Virus record (IMG/VR): IMGVR_UViG_3300035526_000057 | Location: 1 to 39,373 of that record | Reading direction: 5' to 3' (one strand) | Source of the DNA: a virus | Taxonomy: Duplodnaviria; Caudoviricetes | Length of the DNA: 39,373 nucleotides | Shown: piece after piece, positions 994-19,300 of the stretch | Layout of the letters: every line of letters starts with the position of its first letter | How positions within the stretch are numbered: position 1 is the stretch's first letter | Translations under genes and position numbers: made by a program | The notes under the pieces: model-generated | Databases searched by the model: none | Seen by the model: only the letters and a program-made list of their open reading frames with translations | What the model was told of the DNA's origin: nothing

Positions 994-1401
994 ATGAGCG
1001 AAGAAATTCAAGACGCAACAACTAAAACATTTTGGGATAGAGTAGAATGGGATAATGTTGGATTTAACAAGATATCCAAAGAGGACTATCTCAGAATTAG
1101 ATCACTACACCCGAAACTATATGCAACATTCTTAGGGCCAGATAAGAAAACTCAATTCTTTTTATTTAAACCTCTTGGCTGGGGAAAGTATAAAGATATT
1201 AGAGCTAAAGATTTAGATAAAGATACAACAAGAGAGTATATTGTCTCATCATGTATCCTATGGCCTAAGATGGATCCTATCGTAATATCAAACATGGATG
1301 CTGGTGTAATGCTGGCATTAGCAAATCAAATATTAGCAGTTAGTAACTTCATAAAAGATCCAGACCAAGTATTAGAATTTATATTTGAATGCGAAAATTA
1401 A
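994..1401 (+). CDS. Putative tail assembly chaperone
   Basis: 135 aa with a strong RBS (AAGGAG). The pattern F-x-F-K-P-L...EYIVSSCILWP...DAG-V...LANQILAVSNF is chaperone-like, and the gene sits between a tube-like gene and the giant ORFs. Confidence 0.55.
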   Translation: MSEEIQDATTKTFWDRVEWDNVGFNKISKEDYLRIRSLHPKLYATFLGPDKKTQFFLFKPLGWGKYKDIRAKDLDKDTTREYIVSSCILWPKMDPIVISNMDAGVMLALANQILAVSNFIKDPDQVLEFIFECEN

Positions 1402-1402
1402 T

Positions 1403-1993
1403 ATGGCTAAATCATTTAGACTATTAACAGAAAAAATAGATATAAAGTTTAAAACTCTTGGCGCTGAAGAATCTGATAGATATGTATATGCCTTAAAAAC
1501 ATTTCCAAATAAACATGATATTGAAGAGGCTATATTTTTAAAAGTAACTGACTATAATGAATCTGATATATCAGAATTAGATGCTGGTATAATTCCAACA
1601 ATTGCATATCTATCATTAAAACTATCTGGATACCTAAGAACAGACTTTTGCCTTGTTGATAAAATAGACAAGGCAAGAGAAGATATAAAAAACAATCCTT
1701 ATAACAAAATATATTCAATAATAGTAGCTACACAACCACACTATACTCTTGAATCTCTTAGAAAGAAGACTCTTAATGAAGTGCTAGAGCTATTTGCCTT
1801 TAGCGAACTTATAGTTGAAAGAGAAGCTATTGACACTAAAGAGATTAGAGCAAATATCAAAGCTGCACAGAATGAAAGAAAAGCTACAGTTAGTGCAACT
1901 AAGAAAAGTGGTATTAGTAATGTTACAAAAGAAGAAATTGATCTTGTTAAGCAGATGTTAAACGCATCAGAATTTAACCCAGAGATGATTTAA
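1403..1993 (+). CDS. Second tail assembly chaperone-like protein, probable paralog of the upstream gene
   Basis: The ATG at 1403, directly after the TAA at 1399-1401, is more plausible than the TTG at 1385. It shares EEAIF...LDAGIIPTIAYLSLKLSG with the upstream EYIVS...MDAGVMLALANQILAVSN. Confidence 0.5.
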   Translation: MAKSFRLLTEKIDIKFKTLGAEESDRYVYALKTFPNKHDIEEAIFLKVTDYNESDISELDAGIIPTIAYLSLKLSGYLRTDFCLVDKIDKAREDIKNNPYNKIYSIIVATQPHYTLESLRKKTLNEVLELFAFSELIVEREAIDTKEIRANIKAAQNERKATVSATKKSGISNVTKEEIDLVKQMLNASEFNPEMI

Positions 1994-1995
1994 TA

Positions 1996-4900
1996 ATGAA
2001 ACCTATTAACCCCTTTAACAAAGTAATGTCTATTGACCTTGAGGGCACACAGCTACCTGGAGACTTCTATCTCTTTAGCAAGCCTGACGGGTCTTTAGAC
2101 CTTCCTCCTTTAGGAGAAATAACACGAGGATTTGAGCACGTTCATATATTCCAGGCTGGATATATAAGTGGCGATGATATGGTACATTTAGATGTATCTG
2201 AAGCGAAATTCTCTTCTCCTAAAATGCTAGGAGAAAACTTAACTGTACCAGAAGTATTTAAAGATGCTAACGGTGTAACTAGGACATATGTAAGAAACAG
2301 TACCTCATCTATGTCTGAAGAGGGAGTTAATAAGCTATTCAAGTCTTCTTTATCAAAGCTAAGCCCAGCAAAACAAGAAGCATATAAAAAGAAAGTATTG
2401 CCTTATTATCTGATGAAATCAAAGAAGAATACTCAGTTTATTCTTGATGATGGATCCGCGATAGGTTCAATGCCATTTGAAGTATTCTCCAAGTCATATG
2501 AAGATATGCAAAAGATAGCTTCTGACGCTGGGTTTGATTATGCAAAAGTTACTCAGGAAAAGTTTCTTGGCAGAGGAGAGGGATCTTTATTTAAAGCAAT
2601 ATCAGACTTACTAGATGGGGCTACAAAGCAAAAGCCATCTATCATGCGTGCATGGAATCCTTCATACGATGCTCCTGCAATCATTGCATCACTAGAGAGA
2701 TCTGGCAATAAAGATCTTGCTGAAAAAATGCTTAATAGCTATAAGAATGGGCTGTTAAAGATTGAAGGCATCGAGAAGGAGTGGCATGAGATCCTTTGGA
2801 AGTTACTAAAAGAGAATAAAGAAATTACTGGCGATATCAAAATAGGCATGCACCCATTAGCAGCAGCAGCTACAGGTAGGCCAGGGGGAATAGTAAGAAC
2901 CTTTGAAGAGTTTAAATACTCTACATTCTCTTGGAATCAGCGTGACCTTGCAAAGCTATTTCATGGCCATAAAAATCTAAAAGAAATTGGACATATTGCA
3001 TCTACAGATATAAAGCAATCAGAAGCATTCGCCAGCATAATGAAAGATATAAAAGCAGAAGCCATAAATATACATGGCGGAAACATATCTTTTGAAGAAC
3101 TATTTGCATCTGATGACACTAATGGCATATTCACAAAAGCCTTAAACAGAGTAATCAAAAAGGACTTCACAGGCAAAGCTAGGCAAAAAACAGGTAGAGA
3201 ATTAGTTGAAGCAGCAATAGGGCAAGCAAAGAAGACAGAGCTATTCCATAAGCAGCAGTTTGCATCGTGGTTTGCTGCTGACATATCAAAAGCTAAAGGT
3301 GCTAGTTGGAGAAAATATCCAGGATTCTTTGGTGTTGCTGCTGGCTTAGCACTTACTACTTATATGGCGGCTGGAGAAACCCCCCTTAGCTTATCTAAAG
3401 ATGGAACGAGATATTCATCTGGCGTTCCTATGGGTGGAAGTATCTCTGAAAGTGCACAAGGTGGAGGGGATAATATATTCCTAGAGAATGGGTTAGTTAG
3501 GCCGCTGGTAACAGGATTAGTTATTCCGGGCCTAACAGTAGGCGCTATAGGGTATGGTGCTAGCCAGAGATTTAATATCATGTCTAGTGATGTTCCTATG
3601 CCTAGTAACTTTAGAGAGGCAAAAGATCAGTTCTTTAAAACTATGCGGTATGGCATGAAGGTAATTGAGGGACAATTACCAATAGCCAGGGTTTTTGGTA
3701 TCGGATCTCTTACTGATTATATTCGTGGCAGCAGATCTTATATGGTAGATGAGGCAGGTAATGGACTGAGACTATCTAGGTCAGGAAAGCCTATGCCTGG
3801 AAGATTCCATACATTTTCTGTTGTTGATAACGGAAGGATAATAAGAGAATCTAATCCAAGACATGGTACTAATCTAGATAACCTATTATTTAATGTAAAG
3901 AAAAAGAATCCTTCTCAGTATGAGCAATTACAAAATATACTAGCTCCAGACCTATCTAAGATAAATGAAAACATACGTCCAGATAGAAGAAATATACGCA
4001 TCGCATCTACAAACACCGGCAAGACAATAATCTTCTATGATGATTTCAAGTTAGATAAAGCTGGTAATGCTCAAAAGATTACTGGGCTAAGTAAAGAGAA
4101 GGTGCTAATTGATGAGGCTATCTCATTAGCACATGTACGAGATGTTATCCCTCAGGCAGCAAGCAGATCAAGAAGAGCATCTAGTGACAGCTCAAGGATA
4201 GTTTCTTCAAACGTAATAGAAAAATTACATGAGGATCTTGCTAAGTTTAACCCAGAGATTGGGCAAAAGATTAATTTTGAAGAATATCTTTCATCACTTG
4301 AAGTCCCAGGTTTCGTAAGAAACAATGAGGCTATGACTGGGGTATGGAGATCTGCAGAAAAGATTAGATGGGCTCTTGATTTAACATCTAAGGGTGTTGG
4401 AGAAAGGGCAAACAAGTTATTCCCTGAAATATCTAACAGGGTAGCTAGCACACAAACAGTAGCTCTTGTTAAAGATGCTCGTCATTATATGAGACTACCA
4501 GGAGCATTTACTCTTGGCGCTATGGATAAGTTCCTTGAAACTCCTTTTGAATTTCTTGGAATAGATTCTTCTAAAATTACTGGAGCTGCAAATAAATTAA
4601 AAGCTTCTCCAAATATTATATCTAACGTTTTAGGTAAAACGCTTTCTGCTATTGAGTCTCCTCATCTTGGGCTTGGATATTCTAGATATGGTAGTGCTGC
4701 AAAATACCTTGGAGCATTTGGTGTAAAAAGGGTACTTCCTGCATTCCTGGCAGTACAGGCATTTGGGTTAGCTGATCATGTACTTGGTAAAGTAACAGCA
4801 TCTCCCACAGGCAGAGGTCCATTAACAACTTTACCAATCAAAATGTACGAAGGGGCATCTCTACTATATAGTAAGATATCTGATATAGTTGGACTTACAT

Positions 4901-7881
4901 CATATTCTAAATGGCAAGAAAATGTAGCACCTGGTTCAACAGGTCTAGGGATAATGGCTCCTGCTTTAACGGCCACAACATCTATGTATCTAGGGCAGAT
5001 GGCATATAAATATGGCCCTGATTTTATAAAGGATGGGGCTAATAGAATTGGCAGAAAGATGCTAAAGCATCCGCTAATTAAAGCAGCTGCAAGGCCAGAA
5101 GCATATAAGGGTGCTCTTATGAGAAGCCCGGCAGAATCATTTCTGTCATATGTAATAAAGAATCCTAAAAAGGCTATATTTGGATTAAGCCTATTGCCAG
5201 CACTTCCGTTCTTACCTGGATTTCTAGGCTCTAACAAAACATACGAAGAAAGAAAAGCCGAGTTTAAAGGAGATAAGGAAGTAGCAGTTAGAAAGTACAG
5301 AGGATGGTTACTATCATCGTCTCCTTTTGCTGGTGGAAGTGTGAGATCTTGGAGAAAGCATGCGCTTAATGTATTTGAAAGTGATTATGAGAATAGAGGA
5401 GTTCTATATCCTAGCTACTGGGATAAGTTCCTACATAAGATATCTTTAGGTACATATAAGCCATATATGCTAGAGGAATATCATAAAGAATCACAGCCTG
5501 TTTATAAGTCGGCCCCATGGGGCATAAATGTTCCTCTTATTGGCCCTATATTAGCAGCGACTGTAGGAAAGGTAATACCACAAAAGGTTTACCATACACC
5601 GGGAGAGGAAAATGAAGTAGAGACAACTGATCATAGATTCGGACTATCAGCTGGACTAGATAACGGGTCAATTAAAAAGTTTTTTGATAAAAGAGAATCA
5701 ATGGAAGGCTTTATGGTTAGTTTGCATGATCCAACTAGCCTAACATCCTTAAGCTCAAGATTCGCAGATAGCTTAGCAGATCTTGCTGGTTTTAGAGGAT
5801 TTGCACTACAGACAGCATATCAAAAAGTTAGTGGCCAAGCATTGCCTGATGAGTTTGTCCCATATGCACAAGATGCAAGTCAGATGTATAACGCATCTGA
5901 ACTGATGTGGCAATATAATCTTGGTGATATCTCGGTTGTTGGTGGTGAATTTATGAGACGTATTCTTCAGTCATCAGAAAAGAAATGGCAAGAAAATAGA
6001 ATACGAAATGAGCTATATGGAGTTAGCTGGATTCCTCAAGGCGAAAATGGAGGTAAAGATCTAACACATGGTACCACATTTAATAAAGTAGATATGGGAT
6101 GGCTATATGGTGCCAGAAAAGGCTGGGAGTTCTTATATGGAAATGAAGCACGTGGACCTCTAGAGTCTTATGGGGCGCCAGTTAGAACAGAGATCTTAAA
6201 ACATATAGCACCTTACTCTAACCAGTTTAACCAAGAAGCACGATCAACTCTTGAGATGGCATTAACTGATCAACTTGATCCAAAAAGAGAACAGAGGTTC
6301 TATGAAACTCTATTTCAAGTTGCACAAGTAAAAGAGCAGTTATATGCAAAAGCTTCTGAGTTTACATATACATTAGAGACAGATGATGATGAGGGAACTG
6401 TAGATTTCTTAGATGAGGAGTCTGGTGCATTTAGTATTAATGGAAAGAATTATAGATTAGCTGGCGTCTCTCTTAACGAAGCTGATATACGTGCGCGACT
6501 GTTACAAAAGCGTGAATATAAAGATGCTCAGCAACTACACAATGATGTAGATGATATAAGAGAAAGATCTATGAATATTATGCGCAGGCATCTATCAGCA
6601 GGATCATTCGTTAACTTCCAAAAAGCAAAAGCAGAAATGCTACCCGAAACAAGAGGCATGGGACAGGAAGTAATGATGGAAGATCTTGCCCAAGAACTAT
6701 GGGATGCTGGTGCACCGTTTGCAAACACAGGACACTTAGCAACACATAATGTTGCACAGGATAAAGCTGGAATCTCAAGCAAAATAATGGCATCATACTG
6801 GGATGCATTAACCGAAAGAGATTCATTCTGGAATAAGAAGCTTATAAATAAAAGAGATTACCTAGATAGCTACTTATCATCTCAAGTATTTAATAGAGAA
6901 GTTAAGCTATGGACTAGGCCAATAGAACATATCTTAATGCCGTTTATTTCGACCACAATGCATAGTTTATTTGGAGTTGATATCATTCCCTCATTTACTA
7001 AAGAAAGACGCGCTAATCAGCAATATTGGGACGTTATACGGTATATTAAATATAAGCGATTATCAGTAGAGGCTAGCATGGAAGGTGATGCTAGTGCAGC
7101 GGCTTATTATGAGGGCAAATGGCGTAGCACTATGGTTGGTGCTAATCCAACTGACTCAAGCACAAGAGATGAGCTAAACGCATTACCATACGGCGAAAGA
7201 AGATTCTTTGATATGTTCTCTAGCGAATCAGATCCAGAAAAAAGGCAGAAACTCTTTAAGTATCTACCTGAGGGTGCAAAGAGAATATACTCATCTATCT
7301 GGATGTCTAAATTAGCACAAGCAAGTGATGACCCAGAGGTAATAGCACAATTTAATAAGCTTAGAGAATCAGAGGGATGGAACTTATCAGAAGAGGAAGA
7401 GCAAGCATACCTAAGTGAGACTGATGGTACAATCAATAAGGCTGATTGGGCAAGGGCAAAGTTTGTACAAGAATATGCTTCAAAGAACAATCTTCCTGGC
7501 CCAGACTGGATCGGTTGGAATGAAGGTGTTGATTTAGATAACGCACATGTCCTATCATTACTTAAGGGCGATGAGAATGTTCAGGACTATGGATATTTCG
7601 ATAGCAAGATAAGAGAAGCTGTATATGATGAATCTGCACATAAAGCCGTTCTTCAAATAGACTCTAATAGAGCAACCTCGTCTAGGTTAATAAATGCATC
7701 TATGGGATATTTATTAAGTGATAGATCAATAGTATCTGCAACAACGTTGCCAACGTCCTCACAGGTACCAATGGCTCAGGTAGAGATACAGAGCAATAGC
7801 TACAATAAAATTCTTTCAAAATTACACAATTTCGAATCCTCAATCTTAGATGATTCATACATAGATCCGATAGATATTTAA
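1996..7881 (+). CDS. Giant tape-measure-like or ejected protein with an N-terminal DEDDh 3'-5' exonuclease domain and a degenerate SNase-like C-terminal domain
   Basis: 1961 aa. ExoI SIDLEGT (D14, E16), ExoII WNPSYD (D225), ExoIII HIASTD (H333, D338). Several Gly/Ala-rich hydrophobic segments follow. GTVDFLDE..F.ING..YRLAGV...LAQELWDAG at about 6390-6715 is SNase-like. It occupies the tape-measure position after the chaperones. Confidence 0.65.
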   Translation: MKPINPFNKVMSIDLEGTQLPGDFYLFSKPDGSLDLPPLGEITRGFEHVHIFQAGYISGDDMVHLDVSEAKFSSPKMLGENLTVPEVFKDANGVTRTYVRNSTSSMSEEGVNKLFKSSLSKLSPAKQEAYKKKVLPYYLMKSKKNTQFILDDGSAIGSMPFEVFSKSYEDMQKIASDAGFDYAKVTQEKFLGRGEGSLFKAISDLLDGATKQKPSIMRAWNPSYDAPAIIASLERSGNKDLAEKMLNSYKNGLLKIEGIEKEWHEILWKLLKENKEITGDIKIGMHPLAAAATGRPGGIVRTFEEFKYSTFSWNQRDLAKLFHGHKNLKEIGHIASTDIKQSEAFASIMKDIKAEAINIHGGNISFEELFASDDTNGIFTKALNRVIKKDFTGKARQKTGRELVEAAIGQAKKTELFHKQQFASWFAADISKAKGASWRKYPGFFGVAAGLALTTYMAAGETPLSLSKDGTRYSSGVPMGGSISESAQGGGDNIFLENGLVRPLVTGLVIPGLTVGAIGYGASQRFNIMSSDVPMPSNFREAKDQFFKTMRYGMKVIEGQLPIARVFGIGSLTDYIRGSRSYMVDEAGNGLRLSRSGKPMPGRFHTFSVVDNGRIIRESNPRHGTNLDNLLFNVKKKNPSQYEQLQNILAPDLSKINENIRPDRRNIRIASTNTGKTIIFYDDFKLDKAGNAQKITGLSKEKVLIDEAISLAHVRDVIPQAASRSRRASSDSSRIVSSNVIEKLHEDLAKFNPEIGQKINFEEYLSSLEVPGFVRNNEAMTGVWRSAEKIRWALDLTSKGVGERANKLFPEISNRVASTQTVALVKDARHYMRLPGAFTLGAMDKFLETPFEFLGIDSSKITGAANKLKASPNIISNVLGKTLSAIESPHLGLGYSRYGSAAKYLGAFGVKRVLPAFLAVQAFGLADHVLGKVTASPTGRGPLTTLPIKMYEGASLLYSKISDIVGLTSYSKWQENVAPGSTGLGIMAPALTATTSMYLGQMAYKYGPDFIKDGANRIGRKMLKHPLIKAAARPEAYKGALMRSPAESFLSYVIKNPKKAIFGLSLLPALPFLPGFLGSNKTYEERKAEFKGDKEVAVRKYRGWLLSSSPFAGGSVRSWRKHALNVFESDYENRGVLYPSYWDKFLHKISLGTYKPYMLEEYHKESQPVYKSAPWGINVPLIGPILAATVGKVIPQKVYHTPGEENEVETTDHRFGLSAGLDNGSIKKFFDKRESMEGFMVSLHDPTSLTSLSSRFADSLADLAGFRGFALQTAYQKVSGQALPDEFVPYAQDASQMYNASELMWQYNLGDISVVGGEFMRRILQSSEKKWQENRIRNELYGVSWIPQGENGGKDLTHGTTFNKVDMGWLYGARKGWEFLYGNEARGPLESYGAPVRTEILKHIAPYSNQFNQEARSTLEMALTDQLDPKREQRFYETLFQVAQVKEQLYAKASEFTYTLETDDDEGTVDFLDEESGAFSINGKNYRLAGVSLNEADIRARLLQKREYKDAQQLHNDVDDIRERSMNIMRRHLSAGSFVNFQKAKAEMLPETRGMGQEVMMEDLAQELWDAGAPFANTGHLATHNVAQDKAGISSKIMASYWDALTERDSFWNKKLINKRDYLDSYLSSQVFNREVKLWTRPIEHILMPFISTTMHSLFGVDIIPSFTKERRANQQYWDVIRYIKYKRLSVEASMEGDASAAAYYEGKWRSTMVGANPTDSSTRDELNALPYGERRFFDMFSSESDPEKRQKLFKYLPEGAKRIYSSIWMSKLAQASDDPEVIAQFNKLRESEGWNLSEEEEQAYLSETDGTINKADWARAKFVQEYASKNNLPGPDWIGWNEGVDLDNAHVLSLLKGDENVQDYGYFDSKIREAVYDESAHKAVLQIDSNRATSSRLINASMGYLLSDRSIVSATTLPTSSQVPMAQVEIQSNSYNKILSKLHNFESSILDDSYIDPIDI

Positions 7882-7893
7882 TAGGAGATTAAT

Positions 7894-10800
7894 ATGTCAA
7901 CAAACAATCCTTACGAAAGAGAAAACTCTTTTGCAAAAGGTGTATTCAAGGCAGGGGCTGTTGCTGGTGCAGGAGCCCTGTCCTGGAATGCATACAAGCA
8001 TCCAATTAAAACTTATAGTACATTTACTAAGGTTTCCAATAAAGTATTCCCAGTTAAAAACCCAATACTTAATTCTGCTCAATCAAGATACGCAGAGGCT
8101 CAAGAGATTATTGCTACTGCTATGGGTGAGCGCGATAAAAGGGATATGATATTGTCTATGGATAAGAAAAAGCATGCAGCTAAAGTGTTCGGTAAAAGTA
8201 TCGACTGGGGTATTGTTGATCCTTTATATACTAATAGCATGGAAAAAGCTGCATCTAAATATACCTTTACTGACGTTGATCAAATCCTAGATATTAATGG
8301 CAACTCTATAGGAAAGAAAATACAAGATGTATTAGGTCAAAAGTTTAATACATCTGCTACATTAGATAGGTTTGAAGGAACTACAGGTATCTTTAAGATT
8401 GATGGCAAGGAGCTGAAGATAGATTTTGCTAAAAGAGTTGGTAACTCGGAGTCATGGCTATCAAGACGCGGAGAGGCTTTCTACTCTGCGCCCTGGAGAG
8501 CGCACATGACTAAGAGAGGGGATAAGCTTGGGTATGACATGATGGATCCAAACTCTGCTGTACTACATGCCTTGCTTGATGACTTAAATGATGGTGGCAC
8601 ATTAATGTGGCATAATAATAATGATTCAATCAGAAGTATGTATGAAAAGTTTCGAGGAGATGTAGAAAACCCAATTCCCCACAGTCAAGTAATCAGTAAA
8701 ATCAAAGATGAGATCAGAAGGAATAAAACCGGAATAAGGCTTAAGGGCACGGATACAATAAGCGAGTTACAGGAAGCGCTTAACTCATATAATAGATTTG
8801 ACACATTTGTTATAGAGAATAATGATATGTTGCAATCATTATATGGCAGTGAGGCTGTTGTAGATAAGTGGTCTAGATATATGGTAGGGCATGACAAAAG
8901 ATTTGTTGGTGTTGGTGCCGATAGGATATCTGCGCGTGCAGTTAATGTAGATACATCTAAAGGATCAGCACTAAGAAAAGCTTATAACATATTTACAGAT
9001 CTAAGAAAAGATAAGTCGCTTGTAAAGGTAGTAAACTATAATAGATCATCAGCTAAATCCAAATCAGCAAGAGACGTAGAAGATCTAGTTGGCATGTTTG
9101 GTGGATATACGTTAGGCCAAGAAAGAACAGCTGAATTTGGTTTTGCATTCAGAACATCTACATTCCCTCAATACGCAGAAGGCTTTAAGAGTATGAAGGG
9201 TTATAGCTTTATGGATAAACATATCTATTATGATAAAGAAGCCGAACTATCATATCTTGGCGAAAGTATGGAGCATATAAAGTTTGGTGGTATAACTCAA
9301 CATGGCGGAAAAATAGATGAGGCTGCAATTAAAGAACTTAGATTCAATCCATTCATAGATGACAAAACTATGAACAAAAGATTTGGATGGACCAAGTTTG
9401 TACAAGAGAAAGAAGCACTTGTAAAGAATAAGGGCATATATAATATGTCACTAGTAATTAATCCATTTACTACTGAAACAATCCAGGTATCATCTAAATA
9501 CAATAAGCACATGAAGACCCTTGGGCATAAACAGTTTACTGTTGGCACAGTTAATATTAACCCGAACTCAGAAGCATTTGAGGCATCTAAGATAGATTTT
9601 AAATGGCTAGATCATACTGACATATCAGGAGGTGATGGTAAGCCAATTGTTAGAACAAAAAAAGTAAGTATTAAAGATGTGATGGAAGATAAAACTATGT
9701 CTAGGCAGGTGCTTAATGGAGATGCGTGGCTGCAAGTAAACAAAGGAACTGTCCTTGGAGCTAAGAAAGCTGGCATGGAAATTACACCAGACCTTACATT
9801 AGAAGAGGTCCTTAATAAAGACTCAGAGGTTCTAACTAGTAAGTTTAACATGCTTATTGAAAGTGAAGATTATCGTCAAATGCTAGTGGCTACAAAAAGG
9901 ATGCGTAAAACAGAGAAGTATTCTGACTCAGTTAAGTGGATAGGAAGAGTTATCGATAATCCATCCAAGCTTGCACTATGGGGAGCTAGAACAAGAAGCG
10001 CATATAGCTCTGGTGATTCAAAGATAATGAATGATGTGCTTTCACAAGCAGGGTTATACGGTGCAGAAGGAACTATATCATTAGACTTTTATAAGAAGAC
10101 ATTATCGCAATCTGTAAAAGGTAAGGGTGTTGTATTTGGCAAAGATAGTGTTGAGTCGTTGCATTTTATGCAATCAGCACTAGGATGGCAAGCATTACAG
10201 GATACCAATATAGTTCTAGGTGGAGATGCTGCAGTAGACTTTGCAAGATATATAAATGATGGCGAAAAATATATAGATGCATCAGGAAACCTGTCACTAA
10301 CAAGCCTCATGAAAAGAGGGAAGCTAACCTTTAAGCAGCTTACAGATGATACAAAAGCTTTTGGGCAACAATACACGGATACAGTTCAAGTCCTTGGGCG
10401 AGCAAGAAGATCATGGGTAAGAGGTAGAAAATCATCATTGACCACTAAGTTTAGTTCTGATCAAGCAAAAGAAATGGCAGATGTATTAACTGGCCATATT
10501 GAGAAAATAGAAAAGTTTGGTAAGTTCGTAAGTGGAACTGAAGGATCTAAAGAATCAGTTGCACTAGCTAAGCAGATGGTTAAAGGAAACATTGATGTAA
10601 AAGAAGCAATGAAAGCCGCTGGCGTTAGCGCTAAAGAAGTTACCATGGGCATATTCGCAGGAGTAATGCCACAGGAGCAGAACTGGCAAGCACTAGGAGA
10701 AGGATTCAATGAAATGAGAATTTCTTTTAAAAGCTTACCTAGCTTCCTAAACAAGCCAGAAGTGCTAAGAGACCTATCAGTTCAAAGCTTAAATAATACA

Positions 10801-13335
10801 AGTAAAATAGCACAAGAGCTGCTATTGCTAGAAGAGTCTGCTGCCGGAAAAGATGTATCTAAATATGCAGCAGCATATGCATCTCAGTTTGGAGATATAG
10901 CAGAACTAAGTGGCAAAGAAGAGATACTTGAAATGCTAGGTGGAAACTTATCATATGACAGATCAAGCTTAAAGAATCCAGAATTCTTAATGAAATCATT
11001 CTTAAACAATGAACAAAATAAGAATGGCTTCTTTGTTAACATGGCTGATAGGAAAGTATATATCCCTAGTAGAGATATGTGGAATAGCTATATAACAGCA
11101 GATAAAACTCCAACATTTGATGGATTCTTTGCAGAGACACACGAGCTATTAACCGGTGCTGCAGAGGGTGTAAATATGTCACCAAAGTCATTCGAGCAAT
11201 GGCAAAGATCATTATTAGAAGAGGTGCACAGCACCAAAGAAGGGTTAATGCAAAAAGCAACAATGCGTGTAGACCATGCGTTGTATTCAAAACATGTTGC
11301 CGACTATGATTTTATACATAATGAGTCTATTAGAAATGTACTTAAAGACTACATGGAAAATGGACTTAATGGAGCTGAAGAAGTTAAGCATGCGGCCAAA
11401 GAGATGGAAAACATGCTTGGCAACATGGCTCAGATATCTAAAAAAGATTTTGAGTATTCGCTAACACAACTACTAAGTGACACGAAAAAAGAAGCCTCAG
11501 CATCTAAGAGAGAAATGGGAGAAGTCCTTACTGCTCAATTCGGAGAAGATCATTTCCTATCCAAATATTCATCTAAGATGCGTGCCAATATGGAGAAGGC
11601 AGATATAAACAAACTCGTTGGTGAAATTACTGGTGACCAGATAGAGGTTGGCAAAAAGATTAAAGCAGCATACTCAAGATTTATTGAATCAGGAGATGTT
11701 GGAGAATTGCATAACTTAAAAGAACTATCAGGAGATGTATTACATACGCTTAATGTCAGATACCCTGATATCTATACTGGATCTTATACTCAAACAATGA
11801 CACTTATTGGCGGGCCAAATGAGAGTAAAAGAATCTCTCTTGGATCTTTAGTTTCTACTATTATGAATTCTGACATGGACGGTGATGCTATTAATACTAA
11901 ATGGATTATGAGTAGAGCCGCAAGAGAAAGAACACAGACATTAATAAACAGAGATCAGAGAGAAGCATATAAGTACATGAAGATGGGTACTAAAAGTGCA
12001 ATGAATGACATCTTCTTTGGCAAGTCAGATCCTAAATGGAACATTAGAGCAGCCATTGAAAATGCAGATGATTTTGCAGCAGCAATACTGAGAGATACGC
12101 CAGGGTCAACAGCAGTATCATCTTACTTTACTAAAGGGCTAACTGGTTCGTTCAATATTCAGGCGATGGGAATTAAGGGGTATATAAAAGAGCTTGAAGA
12201 TATAAAGAATCTAAGAGAGCAAGACATAAATGTGCTTGAAGGATTCTTTGGTCAGGTAACTTCCAAAATAACAGAACAGGAAGTTATCTCATCTAAGCAA
12301 GCTGAGATCTGGATTAAAGATATAGCAGGCAAAGCGACAAGGCAAGGCAGGATAGAGTCCCTTATAAACATAATCGGAACAGACGATGGAATTAATGCAG
12401 TAAAAGAGTCTGTAAGAGAAATTGGAGGACTTCATCCTCTTGTTATGATGTCAGCTATGACAGAAAAATCACTAAATCCTGCAAGCCAAAAAGCTAGTGC
12501 AGCATATGATGCTGTTTCGGATATGTTAGATGTTCAGAATGGATGGAGAGAAATAGAGGCTGATAGATATAAAAGCATGTACAACTATTTTGATCTTAAT
12601 CAAACAAGCGGTGTGAGTGCAGATGATGCATATAAACAATATAGTGACTGGCTATCTGTAAATAGAAGCGGGTTAATGTCACAGCAAGAGGCCTATGAAA
12701 AAGCAGGGCTAGAAGGCAAAAGCTTATTAGATGTAATGTCAACAGCCTTGTCTGAAGATGGAAAAAGAAATGGATCAATGGTATCTGACAATATTGATTC
12801 AATACTAAGTAGAGCAACCAAGGCGCTTGGGCGTAATCCAGAAGCAAATCTAATGGATGAAGCTTTTGACACAGTAAGAAACCTCCAATACGCAAAAGCA
12901 TCTTACAAGATGTTGACACCTAGGCCATTTAACCCATCTATGCCTCAGGCAGGAAGAAGTGTAATAGGACTAGAAAGTCTACAAAAAGGAATTAGCTGGA
13001 TGCTTGAAAGTAAGACAAGGACGGCTGGTGTTATTGGGCTAGGGCTAACGGCACTAACTGCATTCAACGTGCTAACAAGTGACGGAAGCGTTGAGGACCC
13101 AAATGACCTTCCAAGTGTAAATAATCCTTCATTTGACATAGGTAGAACATCGATGCTATCATCAGAATCACTATCTCCAAATGTCAATGTAAATGCTAAT
13201 ATAAGCTTATTAACAGATAGCAACACATCAACAGATAGTATTTTAAATAAAATGGGATTCCGTACACATAACACAATTTCGGTAAGAAATGACGGAGAAG
13301 ATCCATATAAGCAAGATTTAATGTATTATAGATAA
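7894..13335 (+). CDS. Putative single-chain two-barrel (double-psi beta-barrel) RNA polymerase, probably virion-associated
   Basis: 1813 aa with RBS AGGAG. LNVRYPDIY (R1289) is followed 36 aa later by NSDMDGD (11866-11886), matching the beta-prime N-R-x-P...NADFDGD arrangement. KTEKYSDSVKWIGRV (K675, K681) resembles the beta GDK...KG lysine pair. Both termini are hydrophobic. Confidence 0.75.
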   Translation: MSTNNPYERENSFAKGVFKAGAVAGAGALSWNAYKHPIKTYSTFTKVSNKVFPVKNPILNSAQSRYAEAQEIIATAMGERDKRDMILSMDKKKHAAKVFGKSIDWGIVDPLYTNSMEKAASKYTFTDVDQILDINGNSIGKKIQDVLGQKFNTSATLDRFEGTTGIFKIDGKELKIDFAKRVGNSESWLSRRGEAFYSAPWRAHMTKRGDKLGYDMMDPNSAVLHALLDDLNDGGTLMWHNNNDSIRSMYEKFRGDVENPIPHSQVISKIKDEIRRNKTGIRLKGTDTISELQEALNSYNRFDTFVIENNDMLQSLYGSEAVVDKWSRYMVGHDKRFVGVGADRISARAVNVDTSKGSALRKAYNIFTDLRKDKSLVKVVNYNRSSAKSKSARDVEDLVGMFGGYTLGQERTAEFGFAFRTSTFPQYAEGFKSMKGYSFMDKHIYYDKEAELSYLGESMEHIKFGGITQHGGKIDEAAIKELRFNPFIDDKTMNKRFGWTKFVQEKEALVKNKGIYNMSLVINPFTTETIQVSSKYNKHMKTLGHKQFTVGTVNINPNSEAFEASKIDFKWLDHTDISGGDGKPIVRTKKVSIKDVMEDKTMSRQVLNGDAWLQVNKGTVLGAKKAGMEITPDLTLEEVLNKDSEVLTSKFNMLIESEDYRQMLVATKRMRKTEKYSDSVKWIGRVIDNPSKLALWGARTRSAYSSGDSKIMNDVLSQAGLYGAEGTISLDFYKKTLSQSVKGKGVVFGKDSVESLHFMQSALGWQALQDTNIVLGGDAAVDFARYINDGEKYIDASGNLSLTSLMKRGKLTFKQLTDDTKAFGQQYTDTVQVLGRARRSWVRGRKSSLTTKFSSDQAKEMADVLTGHIEKIEKFGKFVSGTEGSKESVALAKQMVKGNIDVKEAMKAAGVSAKEVTMGIFAGVMPQEQNWQALGEGFNEMRISFKSLPSFLNKPEVLRDLSVQSLNNTSKIAQELLLLEESAAGKDVSKYAAAYASQFGDIAELSGKEEILEMLGGNLSYDRSSLKNPEFLMKSFLNNEQNKNGFFVNMADRKVYIPSRDMWNSYITADKTPTFDGFFAETHELLTGAAEGVNMSPKSFEQWQRSLLEEVHSTKEGLMQKATMRVDHALYSKHVADYDFIHNESIRNVLKDYMENGLNGAEEVKHAAKEMENMLGNMAQISKKDFEYSLTQLLSDTKKEASASKREMGEVLTAQFGEDHFLSKYSSKMRANMEKADINKLVGEITGDQIEVGKKIKAAYSRFIESGDVGELHNLKELSGDVLHTLNVRYPDIYTGSYTQTMTLIGGPNESKRISLGSLVSTIMNSDMDGDAINTKWIMSRAARERTQTLINRDQREAYKYMKMGTKSAMNDIFFGKSDPKWNIRAAIENADDFAAAILRDTPGSTAVSSYFTKGLTGSFNIQAMGIKGYIKELEDIKNLREQDINVLEGFFGQVTSKITEQEVISSKQAEIWIKDIAGKATRQGRIESLINIIGTDDGINAVKESVREIGGLHPLVMMSAMTEKSLNPASQKASAAYDAVSDMLDVQNGWREIEADRYKSMYNYFDLNQTSGVSADDAYKQYSDWLSVNRSGLMSQQEAYEKAGLEGKSLLDVMSTALSEDGKRNGSMVSDNIDSILSRATKALGRNPEANLMDEAFDTVRNLQYAKASYKMLTPRPFNPSMPQAGRSVIGLESLQKGISWMLESKTRTAGVIGLGLTALTAFNVLTSDGSVEDPNDLPSVNNPSFDIGRTSMLSSESLSPNVNVNANISLLTDSNTSTDSILNKMGFRTHNTISVRNDGEDPYKQDLMYYR
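13207..13215 (+). promoter_or_regulatory. Intragenic copy of the TTATTAACA motif upstream of the hub gene
   Basis: TTATTAACAGATA at 13207-13219 is identical to 960-972 and lies about 130 nt upstream of the ATG at 13344. Confidence 0.35.
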
Positions 13336-13343: not shown

Positions 13344-16300
13344 ATGGCACTTTCTAACGAAACTGTACAGAAAATTTTAAGTGATAATAATTTATCTTCA
13401 CCAAATAGATCACAGACAGAAAATCACATAGGAGAAGTAATTACTTTCAGCCCCGGAACTCTAACAACTGATGACGGGGTTGAAATTACTTCTGTAAAAG
13501 TTCTTGACGGTGACACAGTAGTAGATGAGTCTACTGGGCAAAGTTATCGTATATATGGCGTAGATACAAACGAAACAGCTAAATGGAAAAGCGAAGCAGA
13601 AGATTATGCTAACTACCAAAAAGATGTTACTTTTGCAATACTTCAATACGCAGCCGCAACCGGTAAAGAAATTACAATGGTTAGGCAGCGTGATGACGGA
13701 TATGAAAGATGGGTAACTGATATTCAGATAGATGGGACAAGTCTATCTGGAATCTTGGCTGAAAACGGTATTGCACCTGTTAGTGGAGGAGCGGAGTCTA
13801 ATCCTACTCCTAACGGCTTTATATCAAAAAGAGATCTGCAAGATAAAGAAAACAGAGCACAGTCTAACTATAATGGCATCTGGTCACAAGAATATATTAG
13901 ACATCCACTTAAGTATAAAACAACAGATGGAACCTCTGTTACACGCGGAGAGACTGATCCTGCGCTTGGATCTAAAGTTAAAGCAATGAGAATTGCAAAT
14001 GAGACTGATCCCAAAACAAATAGCAATGCGTTAAGGGGACAAGAAAAGATATACAAAGAAGGTATAACAAAGATTGGCGATGTATATCTTGATATTCCTC
14101 CTACTCAAATTAATATCTCTCAGTTAAGAAACTCTTATTCTGTGCCACAGATAGGTGGAGAGTCACGTCCTATATTCAATAGCTCTGCTAGAACAGTAGT
14201 AAAGATAAGTAATGTATTTAGTGGATCATCTCAGATAAATAATGATCTTAAAAGAATATTGTGTCAATTTATATACAACCCAATTAACCTAGTATATTCT
14301 GAAGACATTTATAACAAAGTTATTGGAGATAATAAGTATATAAGAGAAGCTTATAATGCAGATGAAAAGCAATGGTGGGTACCTATGACTATGGACGAGA
14401 TCGTTCTATATACACTAGAGGGTCATCCAGATTGCGTATGTGCAAACATACAAATGTCTGTATTTAACTTTGCTGCATATTTTAATAGTGATCCAAATGT
14501 CAGAATTGAATATCACAAATGCATAGATTATGATTCATCAAAAGAAGTAGAAAATAATCCGCAGATAAATGAAAACACATATACGCTTCACCTAGAAGAA
14601 GCTATCCATCCATATAATATAAGAGTTGAGCAAAAACTAAATCAAGAGAATAGAAGATTTACTCCTGGGGATAGCACAACTACAATCTTTAAGATTGCTG
14701 GCACAGCATCTAGCCTTTCTGTATCTACAAAAGAAAAAGAGGGTGAAGAGCTAGAGCTAAAGAAGGCTAACAAAAAAGAAGGCCTTGATTATCTTGATGA
14801 TAGTATTATAAGAATTGTAAACTCAGAGGTTGAAGGCTTAACAACTGGCGTTCAAGTTCATATGAAGAACAACTGGGCATGGATGCCTGTAATTGGATAT
14901 AGCCAACCAGTTGCTCAATATATTGGACCTGGAGAAACAAGCGTATCTCTTAATATCAAAACAAACCAGAAAGAAATGATATCTAAGCTTCTTTCTACAT
15001 TTGGTGATGTTCAAAATGATAATGGCGTAGAAATATTCTATGACGATAGATATATCGTATCAAATTCTTTAACAAGGCTAGTTGGCTCAGAAATTTGTAG
15101 CATGAACAACTTCTCTGCGTCTAACGTAAATGGACATCCAGGCTGGAGCGATATAAATATAACATTTACAAAAAGCACATATGCAACATCAGAGACAGAG
15201 GACGAAGAGCCCAATCCGTTAGCAGCATTTGATGAGTACTGGGGATTGCAAAGAATACTTGCGCCTATTGGTAACAAAGTAATTGAAGAGGCAATTTACA
15301 GAGAAACAAATCGACTAAGAAAATATATGAAAGATATATCTAAGGAGAATAATGCCATTGGTGCATTATGCTCTGAGAGTGGATTTGATGATGTTGTTAG
15401 GTATTTAGATCCTAGATCAATTGTTGCATATAATAAGTGTTTACAGGTAATCAGAAATCATGCATCCACCTTCAGTGTTCCCTCAGATGAGTCAGTAAGC
15501 TTTAATGTTCTAATGACAAACACTATTGGTCTTAGTTACTTTAAAGGCATTACAGGGCAATATGAAAAGAAAAATATTAAGCTAAACGGGCTGGATATAT
15601 TTGATCGCATGTCTATTGCACGCATGCCTAAAGAGTTTGCAAATAATGCACAGTCATCAGAAGCAATAGCAGCTTATGCATATTATACTAGCAACTCTCT
15701 AAAAGTAGGAGAGGAAGAAAAGAACTTTGATGGCAGCCTTGAAGAAGAGACATTAGCTGGATACCTATTAAGAGACAGGCTTATAAGAGTATATTGCAAC
15801 AGTAAAAGCGTAAAAGGACTAAATGGAAATAGGACATCTTTTGTTAATTTGAATACTGAGCTATGGAATGAGATGAAAAAGATTCAGGAAGGCAGTAAAG
15901 ATAGTCCATATGTAAATCTAAAAATTTACTCTACAAGAGCAAAGACAGTTACATTTGATTTTCCTGGATCAAAATATGATAAGTATAAGACACTTATTAT
16001 AAACTCAATAAAAAATGCGATGGATGATGCGCAAGGGACTTTAGAGGTATATAACAAAAACTGGAGTAAGTTAGCCCTAGCAAAATCAAGAGGATACTCT
16101 ATAGATATAGGATTTATAGGCACAAGAGCAGAGGCAAAATTAATTCAACTTGCATTTAGCCTTGGGTCAACAGGAGAAGCATTTAAGTGGATAAGAGGTA
16201 GGGCTGTAAGTTTCTTAAAAGAAAACCAAGATGAATATCCTAATATCTTTGTCGCAAACTGTTACACAGATAGCGATAACGATAATGTAATGATTCTTGA

Positions 16301-19300
16301 CCCTAAGACAAAAGAAATTCATGTAACAGAAGAAAATTATGACGAGAGACTTAAATGGGTATTTAAGCTTACTCATGCGCCATCACAAGCACTAGAGATG
16401 TTTGATGAGGATGATGTAAAAGAAACTGTACAGGCAATAAAAACAGAAGATTCAGTTGCTGACCCAACAGCAAGATATATTCTTCCGTATGCTGCACATA
16501 GATACTATCCAAAAACCGATTACTTTATTAAACATCATCAGGTACTAAGCGCAAGCGTTGGTGACTGGTTTGTTAATGAATATATTGGTAACCCAGATAA
16601 GCTTTTTGATATGATAGAGAACTCAGTAGAGGATGCAATAAGCCCTCTTTTAAATAAAGAAGCATGGTTATATCCATCTGCTAATCAAGCAAAGCTTAAT
16701 AAAAATATAGTAAGAAAAATAAGCGAAGATGAAAACGATCCTTCAAAAGTAATAGAAGGTATTTGCTTGCCTTTCTTCTCGAAGGACTTTAGTGATATTG
16801 ATAAAAAGGGAGCCCTTAAGAGAGAAAAGGAAGGAGCTATCAATACAGCAATCAGTGTTATCTCTAAAGGAATATATTTTGATGATGACGGTGAAGCGAT
16901 AGAGGAGTTACCAAGCGATATCCCTCTGGATACATTTGCTACTGCATCAATGTGTAGTAAAGGATATTATGACAAGATAAAAGATGTAGGCGGATACATT
17001 AAGAGATATAGGAATAACCTATACAATATCTACTCGCAGAACATTAACACAAGTGGAAAGACAGCATTCTTATATGACTATGCAAATGCGCTGCAAGGAA
17101 AGCAGGTTGGCGGATATGTCAAATTAGCATCTAATGTAGCAAGCAATAGTATAATTGGAGACTTCGATGGATCTTTTGTAAATAGCAATATTGACGTACA
17201 AAGAAAACTTGGCGGATCATACCCTGCTAACTGCTTGATGTTTGCAATGCAAAAATCTCCATTGCTTTTTATGGAGCAGGTTGGAAGATATGCAGAGGAC
17301 GTATCAGTAATAGGGAACAGCTTAGGCTTCAATGAAGTAGAAGCAGACCTAAAGCTTAAGGCTAAAATACTAAGGGTACTTATTCAGGAGAACGCAAAGG
17401 GTATTATCAGAAACCCGTCAACGTCAGGAGAGTCTCTTAAGTATTATAAGAAAACAGAGAAGTGGGAACATATGAATGGTCTCACAACTGAAATGAAAGA
17501 TACTCTTAATAAGCTTCGTGAAGAGATAGGTCTTCCATTTAATATTAATTGTGGATATGCAACAAATGGGCATTCCCCAGAGTCATATCACTATAAGGGA
17601 ATGGCTGTAGACTTTTACATTAAAGAAACTGGCTTTGCAGATGCATATAAGCGCGTTGTTGGTGCTTTAAGTGCATTAGGAATTGCAAACAAAGTAGGGC
17701 TTGGTGTTTACCCGGACTGGAATCATCCTGGATTCCACCTTGATGTCCGTGGGCGTCATGCAAGATGGGGTAGAATTGGCAGCACATATACATCTCTAGA
17801 AAATGCATTAGCACATTATGATAGAAAGCAGAACACAGGGCAGTCGTCATATGAATTAGAGTCAAAAGCTTCTAGCATTGTAACTGACTTAAAAGCTAGG
17901 CTATCTCCATATAAATATGCTTACTATGTAAATGATCAAGATATTAGAGAATATATAAATAGAACAAATTATGTAATGCGGGACAGGGAAAGTCTTTCTT
18001 GGCTACAATCAAGAATAGCGAAGAGAACACAGGCATATTATCCGGCGCGTTTAAGAAATGTAGACAATCAAACCAAAGAGATGGCTGCTAGAAACTCACT
18101 AATCTCCATGCCAGTAACAGTTGGAGTAGAGAACGCATTCCCGACATATAAGATGTATATAATAGAAGAAGATACATCAGATATTAGATACTTCTCACTA
18201 GATGATTATTATGATGTAAGAACATTGCAAGATGTTATGGTTGTTAGATCAAAAGACAACCCGGTTCATACATTAAAAGCTCGCGTAATAATTGATCCTA
18301 AGTACATCTCTGTAAGTAGTAGCGTAAAACAAAAGGTTGGACCACGCAATGAAGATCTAGAAGGAGAAAATGCAGTACCCGCTACACCGGACGTAGATAC
18401 AGATAGAGAAAACTTTTTCAATAAAGGACTAGCTCCTTTTAGGACGGGAATGCGTATATGCTTAAAGCTTGGATATCATAGTGATCCCAGAATATTAAGC
18501 ACTGTATTTATTGGTGTAATCACTGGCCTGCAGGGAAATATGAATACTGGCGTATATGAGGTTGAAGCAAAAGGTGATGGCAGAGAACTAACAGTTCCTC
18601 CTTCTCCAGCGCTAAGACCTAATGTATCTGGTAAAAACTTTGCAGAGATTATATCCATACTAATGAGAACAAACCCTAGCGTTCTTCATTTTGGTAAAGT
18701 ATACGGATCATTCCTAGAGAAGTTCTCAAGAAGGCATTTCGCGTTACTAGCAATGGTTAAACAAGGCTTATTAGATAATGCAATGAAAACATCTTCGTTC
18801 TTAGGGATAGGTGCAGCAGTTGGGTTCTCAGCTGGATACTTACTCCCAGGAAGAGTTCTTTCTAGATCAGCAGTTATGAAGATTCTTGGAGCTGCCGGTG
18901 GAGGCTTAGTGGGAGTAACTACTAGCTTATATATGACATCTGGAGGCATGTACAATAGATCCTCTTTACCTTTTTCGGCAAGAAATAGATATGAAAAATA
19001 TGCAGAATTTGCTAGCAAGATAGATAAATTTGATGGAGCCAAACCATTCATTTTTACTAAGAGATTTATTTCAGCTAGATGGAACAATCTATGTAAATGG
19101 ATGATGGGAAATACATTTAATGTAGCAAAAGCATCTAAGCAAGTAGCTGAGATAATGTATCTAACTTACAAGCAAGGAAACGATCCAATAGATGATAATA
19201 TCTTTGCAGTTGATATATGGAATACTGCATCAATAGAAGATACATTTAATATGCCTATTAATAGCTCAAGATCTATCTGGGAAATTATGTCAGATATAAA

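What the first reader, a model, noticed from the sequence alone, without database searches (positions are those of the whole stretch)
7894..13335. Divergent single-chain two-barrel RNA polymerase encoded in the tape-measure slot of a contractile-tail operon
Seen: LNVRYPDIY (11758-11766 for RYP) followed by NSDMDGD (11866-11886; D1327, D1329, D1331), and about 650 aa earlier KTEKYSDSVKWIGRV (K675, K681) preceded by a hybrid-motif-like V.KGTVLG. Established: two-barrel polymerases bind catalytic Mg with DxDGD downstream of an R-x-P motif, and the second barrel supplies two lysines. Single-chain phage versions include SPbeta YonO, the virion RNAP gp66 of crAss-like phi14:2 and gp96 of Thermus P23-45. 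Inference: this is a virion-packaged RNAP injected for early transcription. Its place between the tail chaperones and the baseplate hub of a myovirus-type tail, and the DMDGD variant, make it easy to mis-annotate as a tape measure or hypothetical protein.
Basis: partly seen in the sequence, partly recalled or inferred. Interest (0 to 1): 0.93.

Follow-up and report, generated by a model that had tools for sequence, protein, structure and literature searches.

The report
Fused RNA polymerase in phage tail
A giant gene in the tail-length-ruler position of a phage related to contractile-tailed Bacillus and Acinetobacter phages encodes a protein predicted to fold as a one-chain version of the cell's RNA polymerase, with its metal-binding motif unchanged in every relative that covers it; the phage likely packs it in the particle and injects it to start reading its own genes.

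Summary
The core claim holds. ORF 7894-13335 (1813 aa) keeps R1289-x-P1291 and D1327-x-D1329-G-D1331 in 29 of 29 aligned rows covering the site. A confident AlphaFold model (pLDDT 82, pTM 0.79) matches RNA polymerase beta-type chains over aa 383-939 and beta-prime-type chains over aa 985-1554. The top 17 structural hits are all two-barrel polymerases, so both barrels lie in one chain, in beta-then-beta-prime order. The gene occupies the slot of 0305phi8-36 gp146, a mass-spectrometry-confirmed virion protein labelled 'tape measure'. The family is cysteine-free (0 in 48,455 aa), as known ejected proteins are. Cultured phages WH1, KLEB27-3 and ME3 carry the motif in this slot; gp146 itself does not. 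Virion delivery, activity and any ruler role are inferred. The closest precedent is Thermus siphophage P23-45 gp96; this is a separate family in contractile-tailed phages. Nine literature searches found no description. This scan noted similar genes before in other genomes.

The parts
7894..13335 (+). 1813-aa single-chain two-barrel RNA polymerase-like protein (P0001), gp146 'tape measure' slot, no cysteine
   Evidence: Shine-Dalgarno-like AGGAG before the ATG
7894..9033 (+). N-terminal region aa 1-380, not folded here; weakly conserved, with N4/Y7 at the start and a glycine/alanine-rich segment
   Evidence: N4 21/22, Y7 20/22, G136 23/24; function unknown
9040..10710 (+). Beta-subunit-like half, aa 383-939
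   Evidence: VIA-align rows 1-4, 10, 13 are beta-type chains over model 4-560; Foldseek of aa 490-960 returns only RNA polymerase entries, best E. coli beta E 2.1e-4
9430..10680 (+). Second double-psi barrel (DPBB-B), aa 513-929, with two large insertions
   Evidence: bare DPBB proteins (msDPBB_sym2, VCP-like DPBB, PEX1-N) align to model 24-440 at rmsd 2.3-3.0
9736..9759 (+). VNKGTVLG, sandwich-barrel-hybrid-like motif inside DPBB-B; G622 invariant
   Evidence: G622 25/25, T619 18/25; fold of this insert not tested separately
9967..9996 (+). Invariant basic pair K692 and R701; inferred counterparts of E. coli beta K1065 and K1073
   Evidence: 25/25 each; equivalence by position in the barrel and by eye only, as the sub-profile did not align to E. 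coli beta
10675..10677 (+). E928, invariant, at the end of the last DPBB-B strand, where E. coli beta has H1237 (by eye)
   Evidence: 28/28; strand E430-437 of the second model
10846..12555 (+). Beta-prime-like half, aa 985-1554
   Evidence: VIA-align to AR9 7s00_d Z 9.2, phiKZ 7ogp_A Z 9.1, Mtb 6edt_D Z 8.9; every row listed by Foldseek is an RNA polymerase entry
11263..11907 (+). Catalytic double-psi barrel (DPBB-A), aa 1124-1338
   Evidence: CDC48-N, VAT-N and msDPBB_sym2 align over model 745-980 at rmsd 2.0-2.4
11758..11766 (+). R1289-Y-P1291 motif
   Evidence: 29/29 for R and P; aligns to R-x-P of phiKZ gp55 and AR9 beta-prime
11872..11886 (+). Catalytic aspartate triad D1327-M-D1329-G-D1331
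   Evidence: 29/29; aligns to the E. coli beta-prime aspartate loop, E 2e-4 in a two-sequence search
12064..12297 (+). Predicted bridge helix (aa 1391-1438; T1413, K1414, T1417, G1418) and trigger-helix motif (Q1462...K1468)
   Evidence: 48-residue helix in the model; G1418, Q1462, K1468 29/29, others 28/29; names assigned by order and knowledge of the fold
13021..13332 (+). Conserved C-terminal segment aa 1710-1813: a hydrophobic glycine-rich helix, then a proline/asparagine-rich motif and a conserved end; candidate loading or membrane-anchoring segment
   Evidence: N1725 28/28, D1730 26/26, P1804 and Y1805 28/28; role inferred
994..1993 (+). Two-gene tail chaperone pair (135 and 202 aa)
   Evidence: phmmer to ME3_33 E 3e-9, 0305phi8-36 gp143 E 1e-4, WH1 gp097 E 4e-4 in a 21-protein set; Hardies 2007 passages
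1996..7881 (+). 1961-aa cysteine-free gp145-type virion protein with three hydrophobic segments and an N-terminal DEDDh-like domain; the other candidate for the tape measure or entry channel
   Evidence: hits WH1 gp096, ME3_35, gp145
13344..21215 (+). 2623-aa baseplate hub (gp147 type) with SNase and M15 peptidase-like domains
23194..24408 (+). Baseplate J / wedge protein, marker of a contractile tail
   Evidence: PF04865 E 2.4e-13, phrog_6 E 3e-28

Best explanation
The gene encodes a protein predicted to fold as a single-chain two-barrel RNA polymerase, and the phage likely packages it in the virion and ejects it through the tail so that it would transcribe the first phage genes. Shown: the motifs, their conservation, the gene order, the absence of cysteine. 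Predicted: a beta-like half fused to a beta-prime-like half, with DPBB-A supplying D1327/D1329/D1331 for Mg and DPBB-B supplying K692/R701 for the phosphates, followed by a bridge helix and trigger helix. Inferred: it is made late from the tail operon and loaded with the neighbouring cysteine-free giant (1996-7881), probably in the tail lumen. The folded core is too bulky for a tail tube, so it would pass unfolded or domain by domain and refold in the cell. It may be tethered at the entry site by its hydrophobic C-terminal helix. It would then make early transcripts without the host enzyme; later genes would use host polymerase with a phage sigma factor, or a second, non-virion phage polymerase.
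For: Fold: AF2 model of aa 380-1570, pLDDT 81.8, pTM 0.79. VIA-align over 48,161 chains: rows 1-17 are all two-barrel polymerase chains, beta-type on model 4-560 and beta-prime-type on 606-1175. Single-chain P74-26 gp62 (Z 7.9, 306 aligned), QDE-1 (Z 7.7, 382 aligned) and RDR2 (Z 6.3, 347 aligned) span both halves. Foldseek agrees for each half. Catalytic residues invariant. A profile search of the PDB puts 4 beta-prime-type chains among the top 5 of 8 hits, aligned on R-x-P...DxDGD (E 0.024-0.53). Virion: gene order matches 0305phi8-36, whose gp145 and gp146 were found in virions by mass spectrometry, and is kept in both related metagenomic loci. Ejection: 0 cysteines in 48,455 aa of P0001-P0032 against 0.86% in the other window proteins. 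In four related genomes, all 8 proteins of these two slots lack cysteine, while the other 23 ORFs of 900 aa or more have 1-21. Cysteine suppression marks N4-like ejection proteins (PMC11445570 passages). Precedent: P23-45 gp96. The closest relative's contig holds a second, cysteine-containing candidate polymerase outside the tail operon, as a virion/non-virion pair would predict (motifs only).
Against: No activity, virion or transcript data exist for this protein. The mass-spectrometry evidence is for gp146, which lacks the motif and shows no detectable homology to this family, so only its position transfers. Structural scores are modest (best Z 9.8, rmsd 4-7; Foldseek E 2e-4), and the beta half does not align to E. 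coli beta by sequence. Baseplate J is also cysteine-free, so the signal is not exclusive to ejected proteins. A crude scan found no repeated phage-specific intergenic 12-mer in WH1, ME3 or the two related contigs. ME3 has DHDQD in place of DxDGD.
Confidence: 0.72

Rival explanations
1. Sub-question, compatible with the best explanation: the polymerase chain is itself the tape measure, stretched along the tail lumen, rather than cargo carried beside a separate ruler (the 1961-aa neighbour) or in the head.
For: It is the last giant gene before the hub. gp146 was assigned as tape measure on length, and 2537 aa against a 486-nm tail gives 0.19 nm per residue. The slot gene persists at similar length when the polymerase motif is absent. 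P23-45 is a precedent for the fusion.
Against: About 1170 of 1813 residues form a globular enzyme, with no long helical repeat body. Only a sub-threshold tape-measure Pfam hit (E 0.076). The neighbour has more hydrophobic segments (3 against 1), is better conserved across the lineage, and lies next to the chaperones. Only one tail length could be found.
Confidence: 0.4
2. It is an active, ejected two-barrel enzyme whose main job is not early mRNA synthesis: it pulls the genome into the cell by transcribing along it, or makes primers or other short RNAs, or copies another template type.
For: Invariant differences from the cellular active centre (R701 for the second lysine, E928 for the histidine, both by eye). 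A DEDDh exonuclease travels with these two slot proteins. The fold is shared with RNA-dependent enzymes such as QDE-1 and RDR2. No phage promoter motif was found.
Against: Best structural matches are DNA-dependent RNA polymerases. The characterised phage single-chain two-barrel enzymes transcribe genes. R1289, which matches the ribonucleotide-selecting arginine of beta-prime (established knowledge), is invariant.
Confidence: 0.13
3. It is a non-virion (middle or late) phage RNA polymerase whose gene merely sits in the tail operon.
For: No direct virion evidence for a member that bears the motif was seen. WH1's 'virion structural protein' label may be transferred by homology. Among five cultured relatives, a YonO/RdRP-type gene rang only in 0305phi8-36, whose slot gene lacks the motif, which could mean functional replacement.
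Against: Tight coupling inside a late structural operon (12 and 8 bp gaps). Family-wide lack of cysteine. A separate cysteine-containing candidate exists elsewhere in the closest relative.
Confidence: 0.08
4. It is a catalytically dead polymerase relic kept as a structural tail protein.
For: 0305phi8-36 and MTATph1 do without the motif in this slot.
Against: At about 20% overall identity, the invariant residues cluster at the catalytic positions of both barrels and the mobile helices.
Confidence: 0.04

Closest known systems
Thermus phage P23-45 gp96, tape-measure-fused virion RNA polymerase (Chaban et al., bioRxiv 10.1101/2022.12.01.518664 / PMC10770324)
   Same: Single-chain two-barrel polymerase encoded in the tail module, DxDGD, proposed ejection through the tail; a second non-virion polymerase (gp64) parallels the candidate seen in the closest relative.
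   Different: gp96 is a 5002-aa chain with an N-terminal, clamp-less polymerase and a long tape body in a non-contractile tail. Here the polymerase fills about two thirds of an 1813-aa chain in a contractile-tail module, and the model aligns from aa 985 with the N-terminal part of beta-prime chains. gp96 matched only as a bare barrel (Z 4.7, 73 residues, rank 44).
crAss-like phi14:2 gp66 virion RNA polymerase (bioRxiv 10.1101/2020.03.07.982082; search listing and abstract start only)
   Same: Large single-chain, virion-packaged two-barrel enzyme encoded among giant genes.
   Different: Podovirus-type particle (recalled). No sequence hit; crAss-type models rank low in the viral library.
YonO / RdRP-like phage polymerases, including 0305phi8-36 gp99 (PMC7824862, PMC2147016 passages)
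   Same: Both barrels in one chain; found in the same phage lineage.
   Different: PF05183 does not hit any of the 30 family members. gp99 lies outside the tail operon. YonO-type enzymes lack the sandwich-barrel-hybrid insert, for which this family has a conserved motif.
phiKZ and AR9 multisubunit polymerases; cellular beta and beta-prime
   Same: Best structural and profile matches for each half; collinear beta-then-beta-prime order.
   Different: Those are split into 2-5 chains; this is one cysteine-free chain, only 8-16% identical in structural alignments.
Bacillus phage 0305phi8-36 gp146 'hypothetical tape measure protein'; WH1 gp095, KLEB27-3 gp034, ME3 gp36
   Same: Same slot, no cysteine. 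WH1 and KLEB27-3 carry R-Y-P...DxDGD and ME3 carries R-E-P...DHDQD. The family profile hits WH1 gp095 at E 2.7e-13; ME3's viral model is a top structural hit (E 2.9e-4).
   Different: None is annotated as a polymerase. gp146 lacks the motif and has a DEDDh-type motif instead. ME3 gp36 is not detectable by profile.

Membership tests
Two-barrel RNA polymerase superfamily | DPBB-A carrying DxDxD downstream of R-x-P | tested here: met
   29/29 rows; barrel confirmed on the model
Two-barrel RNA polymerase superfamily | Second double-psi barrel (DPBB-B) | tested here: met
   separate model of aa 490-960 matches beta chains and bare DPBB proteins
Two-barrel RNA polymerase superfamily | Two conserved basic residues on DPBB-B | tested here: met
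   K692 and R701 25/25; their equivalence to beta K1065/K1073 is by position, not by a residue-level structural alignment
Two-barrel RNA polymerase superfamily | Bridge helix and trigger loop after DPBB-A | tested here: inconclusive
   long helix and invariant G1418, Q1462, K1468 in the expected order, inside the aligned ranges; no residue-level alignment, no sequence match to E. coli
Two-barrel RNA polymerase superfamily | Template-directed RNA synthesis | not testable with these tools
   needs purified protein
P23-45 gp96 tape-measure-fused vRNAP | Polymerase at the N-terminus of a much longer tape body with peptidase and membrane domains | tested here: not met
   core spans aa 383-1554 of 1813; about 260 aa follow
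P23-45 gp96 tape-measure-fused vRNAP | Long non-contractile tail | tested here: not met
   baseplate J and hub in the window; relatives are myoviruses
P23-45 gp96 tape-measure-fused vRNAP | Clamp-less flat architecture | tested here: inconclusive
   aligned ranges start at beta-prime residues 7-21 from model 606, which suggests clamp elements, but ranges give only the ends
P23-45 gp96 tape-measure-fused vRNAP | Present in virions; transcribes pre-early genes | not testable with these tools
   indirect only
YonO / RdRP-like polymerases | Match to PF05183 | tested here: not met
   0 of 30 members at E 0.1, while gp99 scores E 1e-20
crAss-like gp66 vRNAP | Structural or sequence closeness to gp66 | tested here: inconclusive
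   no sequence hit; structure lists do not exclude it
phiKZ/AR9 multisubunit RNAP | Beta and beta-prime split over several polypeptides | tested here: not met
   one ORF; 22 of the 31 hits are 1636-1964 aa long
Tape measure protein | Position between tail chaperones and hub | tested here: met
   shared with the 1961-aa neighbour
Tape measure protein | Mostly extended helical or repeat body | tested here: not met
   aa 380-1570 fold as a globular alpha/beta enzyme; the termini were not folded
Tape measure protein | Length sets tail length | not testable with these tools
   one tail length found; none for ME3

The most novel reading that the evidence does not exclude
[quoted passage not shown] It is stored unfolded in the tail lumen as the tape measure itself and refolds after ejection. 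The slot acts as an exchangeable payload carrier, holding a polymerase, a DEDDh exonuclease or both between conserved terminal loading segments.
Probability: 0.33. Interest if true: 0.86.

Novelty: new variant of a known kind. Interest (0 to 1): 0.7.

Why it matters
Single-chain virion polymerases of the cellular type have been characterised in crAss-like phages and in one Thermus siphophage. This adds a family invisible to Pfam, PHROGs and single-sequence PDB search, in contractile-tailed phages, and closer in predicted fold to cellular and phiKZ/AR9 subunits than to gp96. It re-annotates 'structural' or 'hypothetical' genes of cultured phages (WH1, Edson, KLEB27-3, ME3), which were not listed as polymerase-encoding in the passages read. 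How a 130-kDa enzyme core passes a contractile tail, and which promoters it reads, can therefore be tested at once. It also questions the tape-measure label of 0305phi8-36 gp146.

Tried and rejected
Single-sequence searches gave nothing: Pfam (only a tape-measure hit at E 0.076), PHROGs, PDB phmmer, tblastn against 50,697 phage records. Word-based protein searches returned only 1-2 known rows. Locus scans found only two related contigs; scans with P0001, of metagenome contigs and of genome contigs (108, 113) were empty, so no host could be assigned. K675/K681 were rejected as the catalytic pair. Sub-profiles of the beta half, bridge helix and trigger region did not align to E. coli beta or beta-prime; only the aspartate loop did. 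hhalign found no homology of the family to ME3 gp36, 0305phi8-36 gp146 (111) or the second candidate polymerase. gp66 is in neither VIA top-50 list, and gp96 is absent from the whole-model list. ESM Atlas hits were leads only: 0.84 to RNA_pol_Rpb1_2 clusters and 0.83-0.85 for the neighbour's N-terminus. Promoter and terminator counts were at chance. The exact 12-mer intergenic scan gave at most 3 copies, mostly ribosome-binding or A-rich words; the long pairs in G001/G002 are artefacts of overlapping stretches. Two of the 31 hits were left out of alignment A1: P0016 (233-aa fragment) and P0025 (repetitive, short match). P0032 ends before the catalytic site, hence n = 29.
Full report
OBSERVATION. 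The ORF at 7894-13335 (+) encodes 1813 aa. A lone DxDGD occurs in 4% of 5000 shuffles and R-x-P...DxDGD in 0.3%, so the motif alone is a fair lead, not proof. Pfam, PHROGs, PDB phmmer and tblastn against cultured phages gave nothing useful.

FAMILY. A phmmer scan of 1.84 billion representatives with aa 901-1500 found 31 proteins. I aligned 29 of them with the query (A1), leaving out a 233-aa fragment and a repetitive short match. Apart from one 97% relative they are 18-38% identical. R1289, P1291, D1327, D1329, G1330, D1331, G1176, G1418, Q1462 and K1468 are present in 29 of 29 rows that cover them; T1413, K1414 and T1417 in 28 of 29. In the N-terminal half K432, G622, K692, K750 and R701 are 25/25, and E928 and G935 are 28/28. 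The family profile against the PDB returned 8 sequences at E up to 10. Four of the top five are beta-prime-type: phiKZ gp55 (E 0.024), two AR9 forms and S. aureus; the three alignments shown sit on R-x-P...DxDGD. Ten members looked up are unnamed or 'hypothetical', on contigs up to 402 kb. Two related viral contigs are rated 52% and 42% complete at 108 and 87 kb, implying genomes near 200 kb.

FOLD. AlphaFold2 on aa 380-1570 with 30 sequences gave pLDDT 81.8 and pTM 0.79. Every row that Foldseek listed against the PDB is an RNA polymerase entry, with best E 2.3e-4. VIA-align against 48,161 representatives put two-barrel polymerase chains in rows 1-17. Beta-type chains align over model 4-560 (aa 383-939; Pol I Z 9.8, rmsd 5.0, 271 aligned; Xanthomonas beta Z 9.2, 337 aligned). 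Beta-prime-type chains align over 606-1175 (aa 985-1554; AR9 Z 9.2, phiKZ Z 9.1, Mtb Z 8.9). The single-chain enzymes P74-26 gp62, QDE-1 and RDR2 align across both halves (306-382 residues), which indicates that the two barrels sit in the usual relation. A second model of aa 490-960 (pLDDT 78.7) returned only RNA polymerase entries in Foldseek. Bare double-psi barrels matched it over aa 513-929 at rmsd 2.3-3.0. The Z values are modest and each alone could be chance; their unanimity and the two-part order are the evidence. By position, K692 and R701 stand where E. coli beta has K1065 and K1073, and E928 where it has H1237. That is my reading by eye: sub-profiles did not recover these matches, only the aspartate loop (E 2e-4).

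CONTEXT. The hub gene hits Bacillus phages WH1, Edson and KLEB27-3, Moorella MTATph1 and Acinetobacter ME3. The window's order (chaperone pair, 1961-aa giant, this gene, hub, small genes, baseplate J) matches 0305phi8-36 gp143-gp151 and both related contigs. [quoted passage not shown] GenBank lists gp145 and gp146 as virion proteins by mass spectrometry. The phage is a myovirus with a 486-nm tail (PMC1817643, passages). In the slot, WH1 gp095 and KLEB27-3 gp034 carry R-Y-P...DxDGD and ME3 gp36 carries R-E-P...DHDQD. The profile hits WH1 gp095 at E 2.7e-13. In the viral structure library the top hit is an unnamed 1258-aa model (E 3e-8; its length is half of WH1 gp095, an inference), then a 'minor tail protein' of Siphoviridae ctnpt50 (3e-7) and ME3 (3e-4). 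Against a uniform picture: gp146 itself and the MTATph1 gene (interrupted by a transposase) lack the motif, and gp146 shows no homology to the family. Of five cultured genomes only 0305phi8-36 has a PF05183 gene. WH1 (over the cut-off) and KLEB27-3 (below it) have sigma-factor matches, 2 of 5 records searched.

EJECTION SIGNAL. P0001-P0032 contain 0 cysteines in 48,455 aa, against 80 in 9292 aa for the other window proteins. In WH1, ME3 and the two contigs, all 8 proteins of the gp145 and gp146 slots lack cysteine, and the other 23 distinct ORFs of 900 aa or more have 1-21. Cysteine suppression is reported for the ejection operon of N4-like phages and linked to passage through the envelope (PMC11445570, passages). 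The limit is that baseplate J is cysteine-free too.

MECHANISM. Shown: motifs, conservation, order, composition. Predicted: both barrels, a long bridge helix and a trigger motif in one chain. Inferred: late expression with the tail genes, loading with the neighbouring giant, ejection on contraction, refolding, and host-independent transcription of the first genes (0.72). Whether the chain is also the ruler is open (0.4): two thirds of it is globular, and the neighbour has more hydrophobic segments. The closest relative's contig encodes a second 1207-aa, cysteine-containing protein with R-N-P...GDVDGD outside the tail operon. It has no Pfam, PDB or phage match and no homology to this family. 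It would fit a non-virion partner but was not folded. No phage-specific promoter motif emerged from a crude scan.

KNOWN SYSTEMS AND NOVELTY. It works like P23-45 gp96 (bioRxiv text, parts 1-3 of 6 read; PMC10770324 passages), but it is not a member: different tail type, no long tape body, and only a bare-barrel structural match. It is not YonO/RdRP-like (0 of 30 members hit PF05183) and not split like the phiKZ enzymes. Iyer et al. name only the YonO-like enzymes for group 3 jumbo phages and state that the rest encode none (PMC7824862, passages). The ME3 announcement mentions no polymerase (PMC5000817, whole text). A 2026 review has no passage with '0305' or 'ME3' (PMC13282480, passages). Chaban's supplements name none of these phages. 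That is weak evidence: the table lists only viruses with two or more polymerase chains, one file was cut, and the 7z family alignments could not be read. Nine paper searches found no description; papers on WH1, KLEB27-3 and MTATph1 were not found in the library. I also saw passages of PMC12474458, PMC5795418 and PMC5348500, with nothing on this gene. This scan's notes list eight similar findings in other genomes (unchecked); none is a look-alike by shared words.

VERDICT. Real feature; polymerase fold about 0.95; virion-delivered early polymerase 0.72. New variant of a known kind. Interest 0.70: the concept has a precedent, but this is a separate, unnamed family with both barrels supported and with cultured phages ready for testing.

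Noticed in passing
window 1996-3081: The upstream giant begins with a DEDDh-exonuclease-like domain. D14, E16, H333 and D338 are invariant with the domains found on the slot proteins of WH1, KLEB27-3 and MTATph1 (PF00929 E 5e-5 for MTATph1), so the domain appears to move between the two cysteine-free giants.
   Followed up: partly
L029:15826-19446 (+), G001: Second candidate single-chain polymerase in the closest relative: 1207 aa, 11 cysteines, R-N-P at 770 and GDVDGD at 806-811, no family match; possible non-virion partner.
   Followed up: partly
window 22470-23210: HNH/homing-endonuclease-like gene inserted just before baseplate J and overlapping its start; absent from both related loci.
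   Followed up: partly
window 34414-35262: Cas4-like nuclease gene among baseplate and fibre genes (phrog_1706 E 4e-23).
   Followed up: no
window 13344-21215: Hub carries an N-terminal staphylococcal-nuclease domain (E 7e-8) and a weak M15 peptidase match, like the BtI1 hub described by Hardies et al..
   Followed up: no
L003:9933-14744: ME3 gp36 has DHDQD instead of DxDGD in the catalytic loop, yet is a top structural hit.
   Followed up: partly
L002:8061-15417: The MTATph1 slot gene is interrupted by a transposase and an ATPase-like IS gene, and its annotated pieces lack the polymerase motif.
   Followed up: no
BFVD A0A8S5SD80_1: A 'minor tail protein' of Siphoviridae sp. ctnpt50 matches the model over 1159 columns (E 3e-7): possibly the same polymerase at the N-terminus of a longer tail protein.
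   Followed up: no
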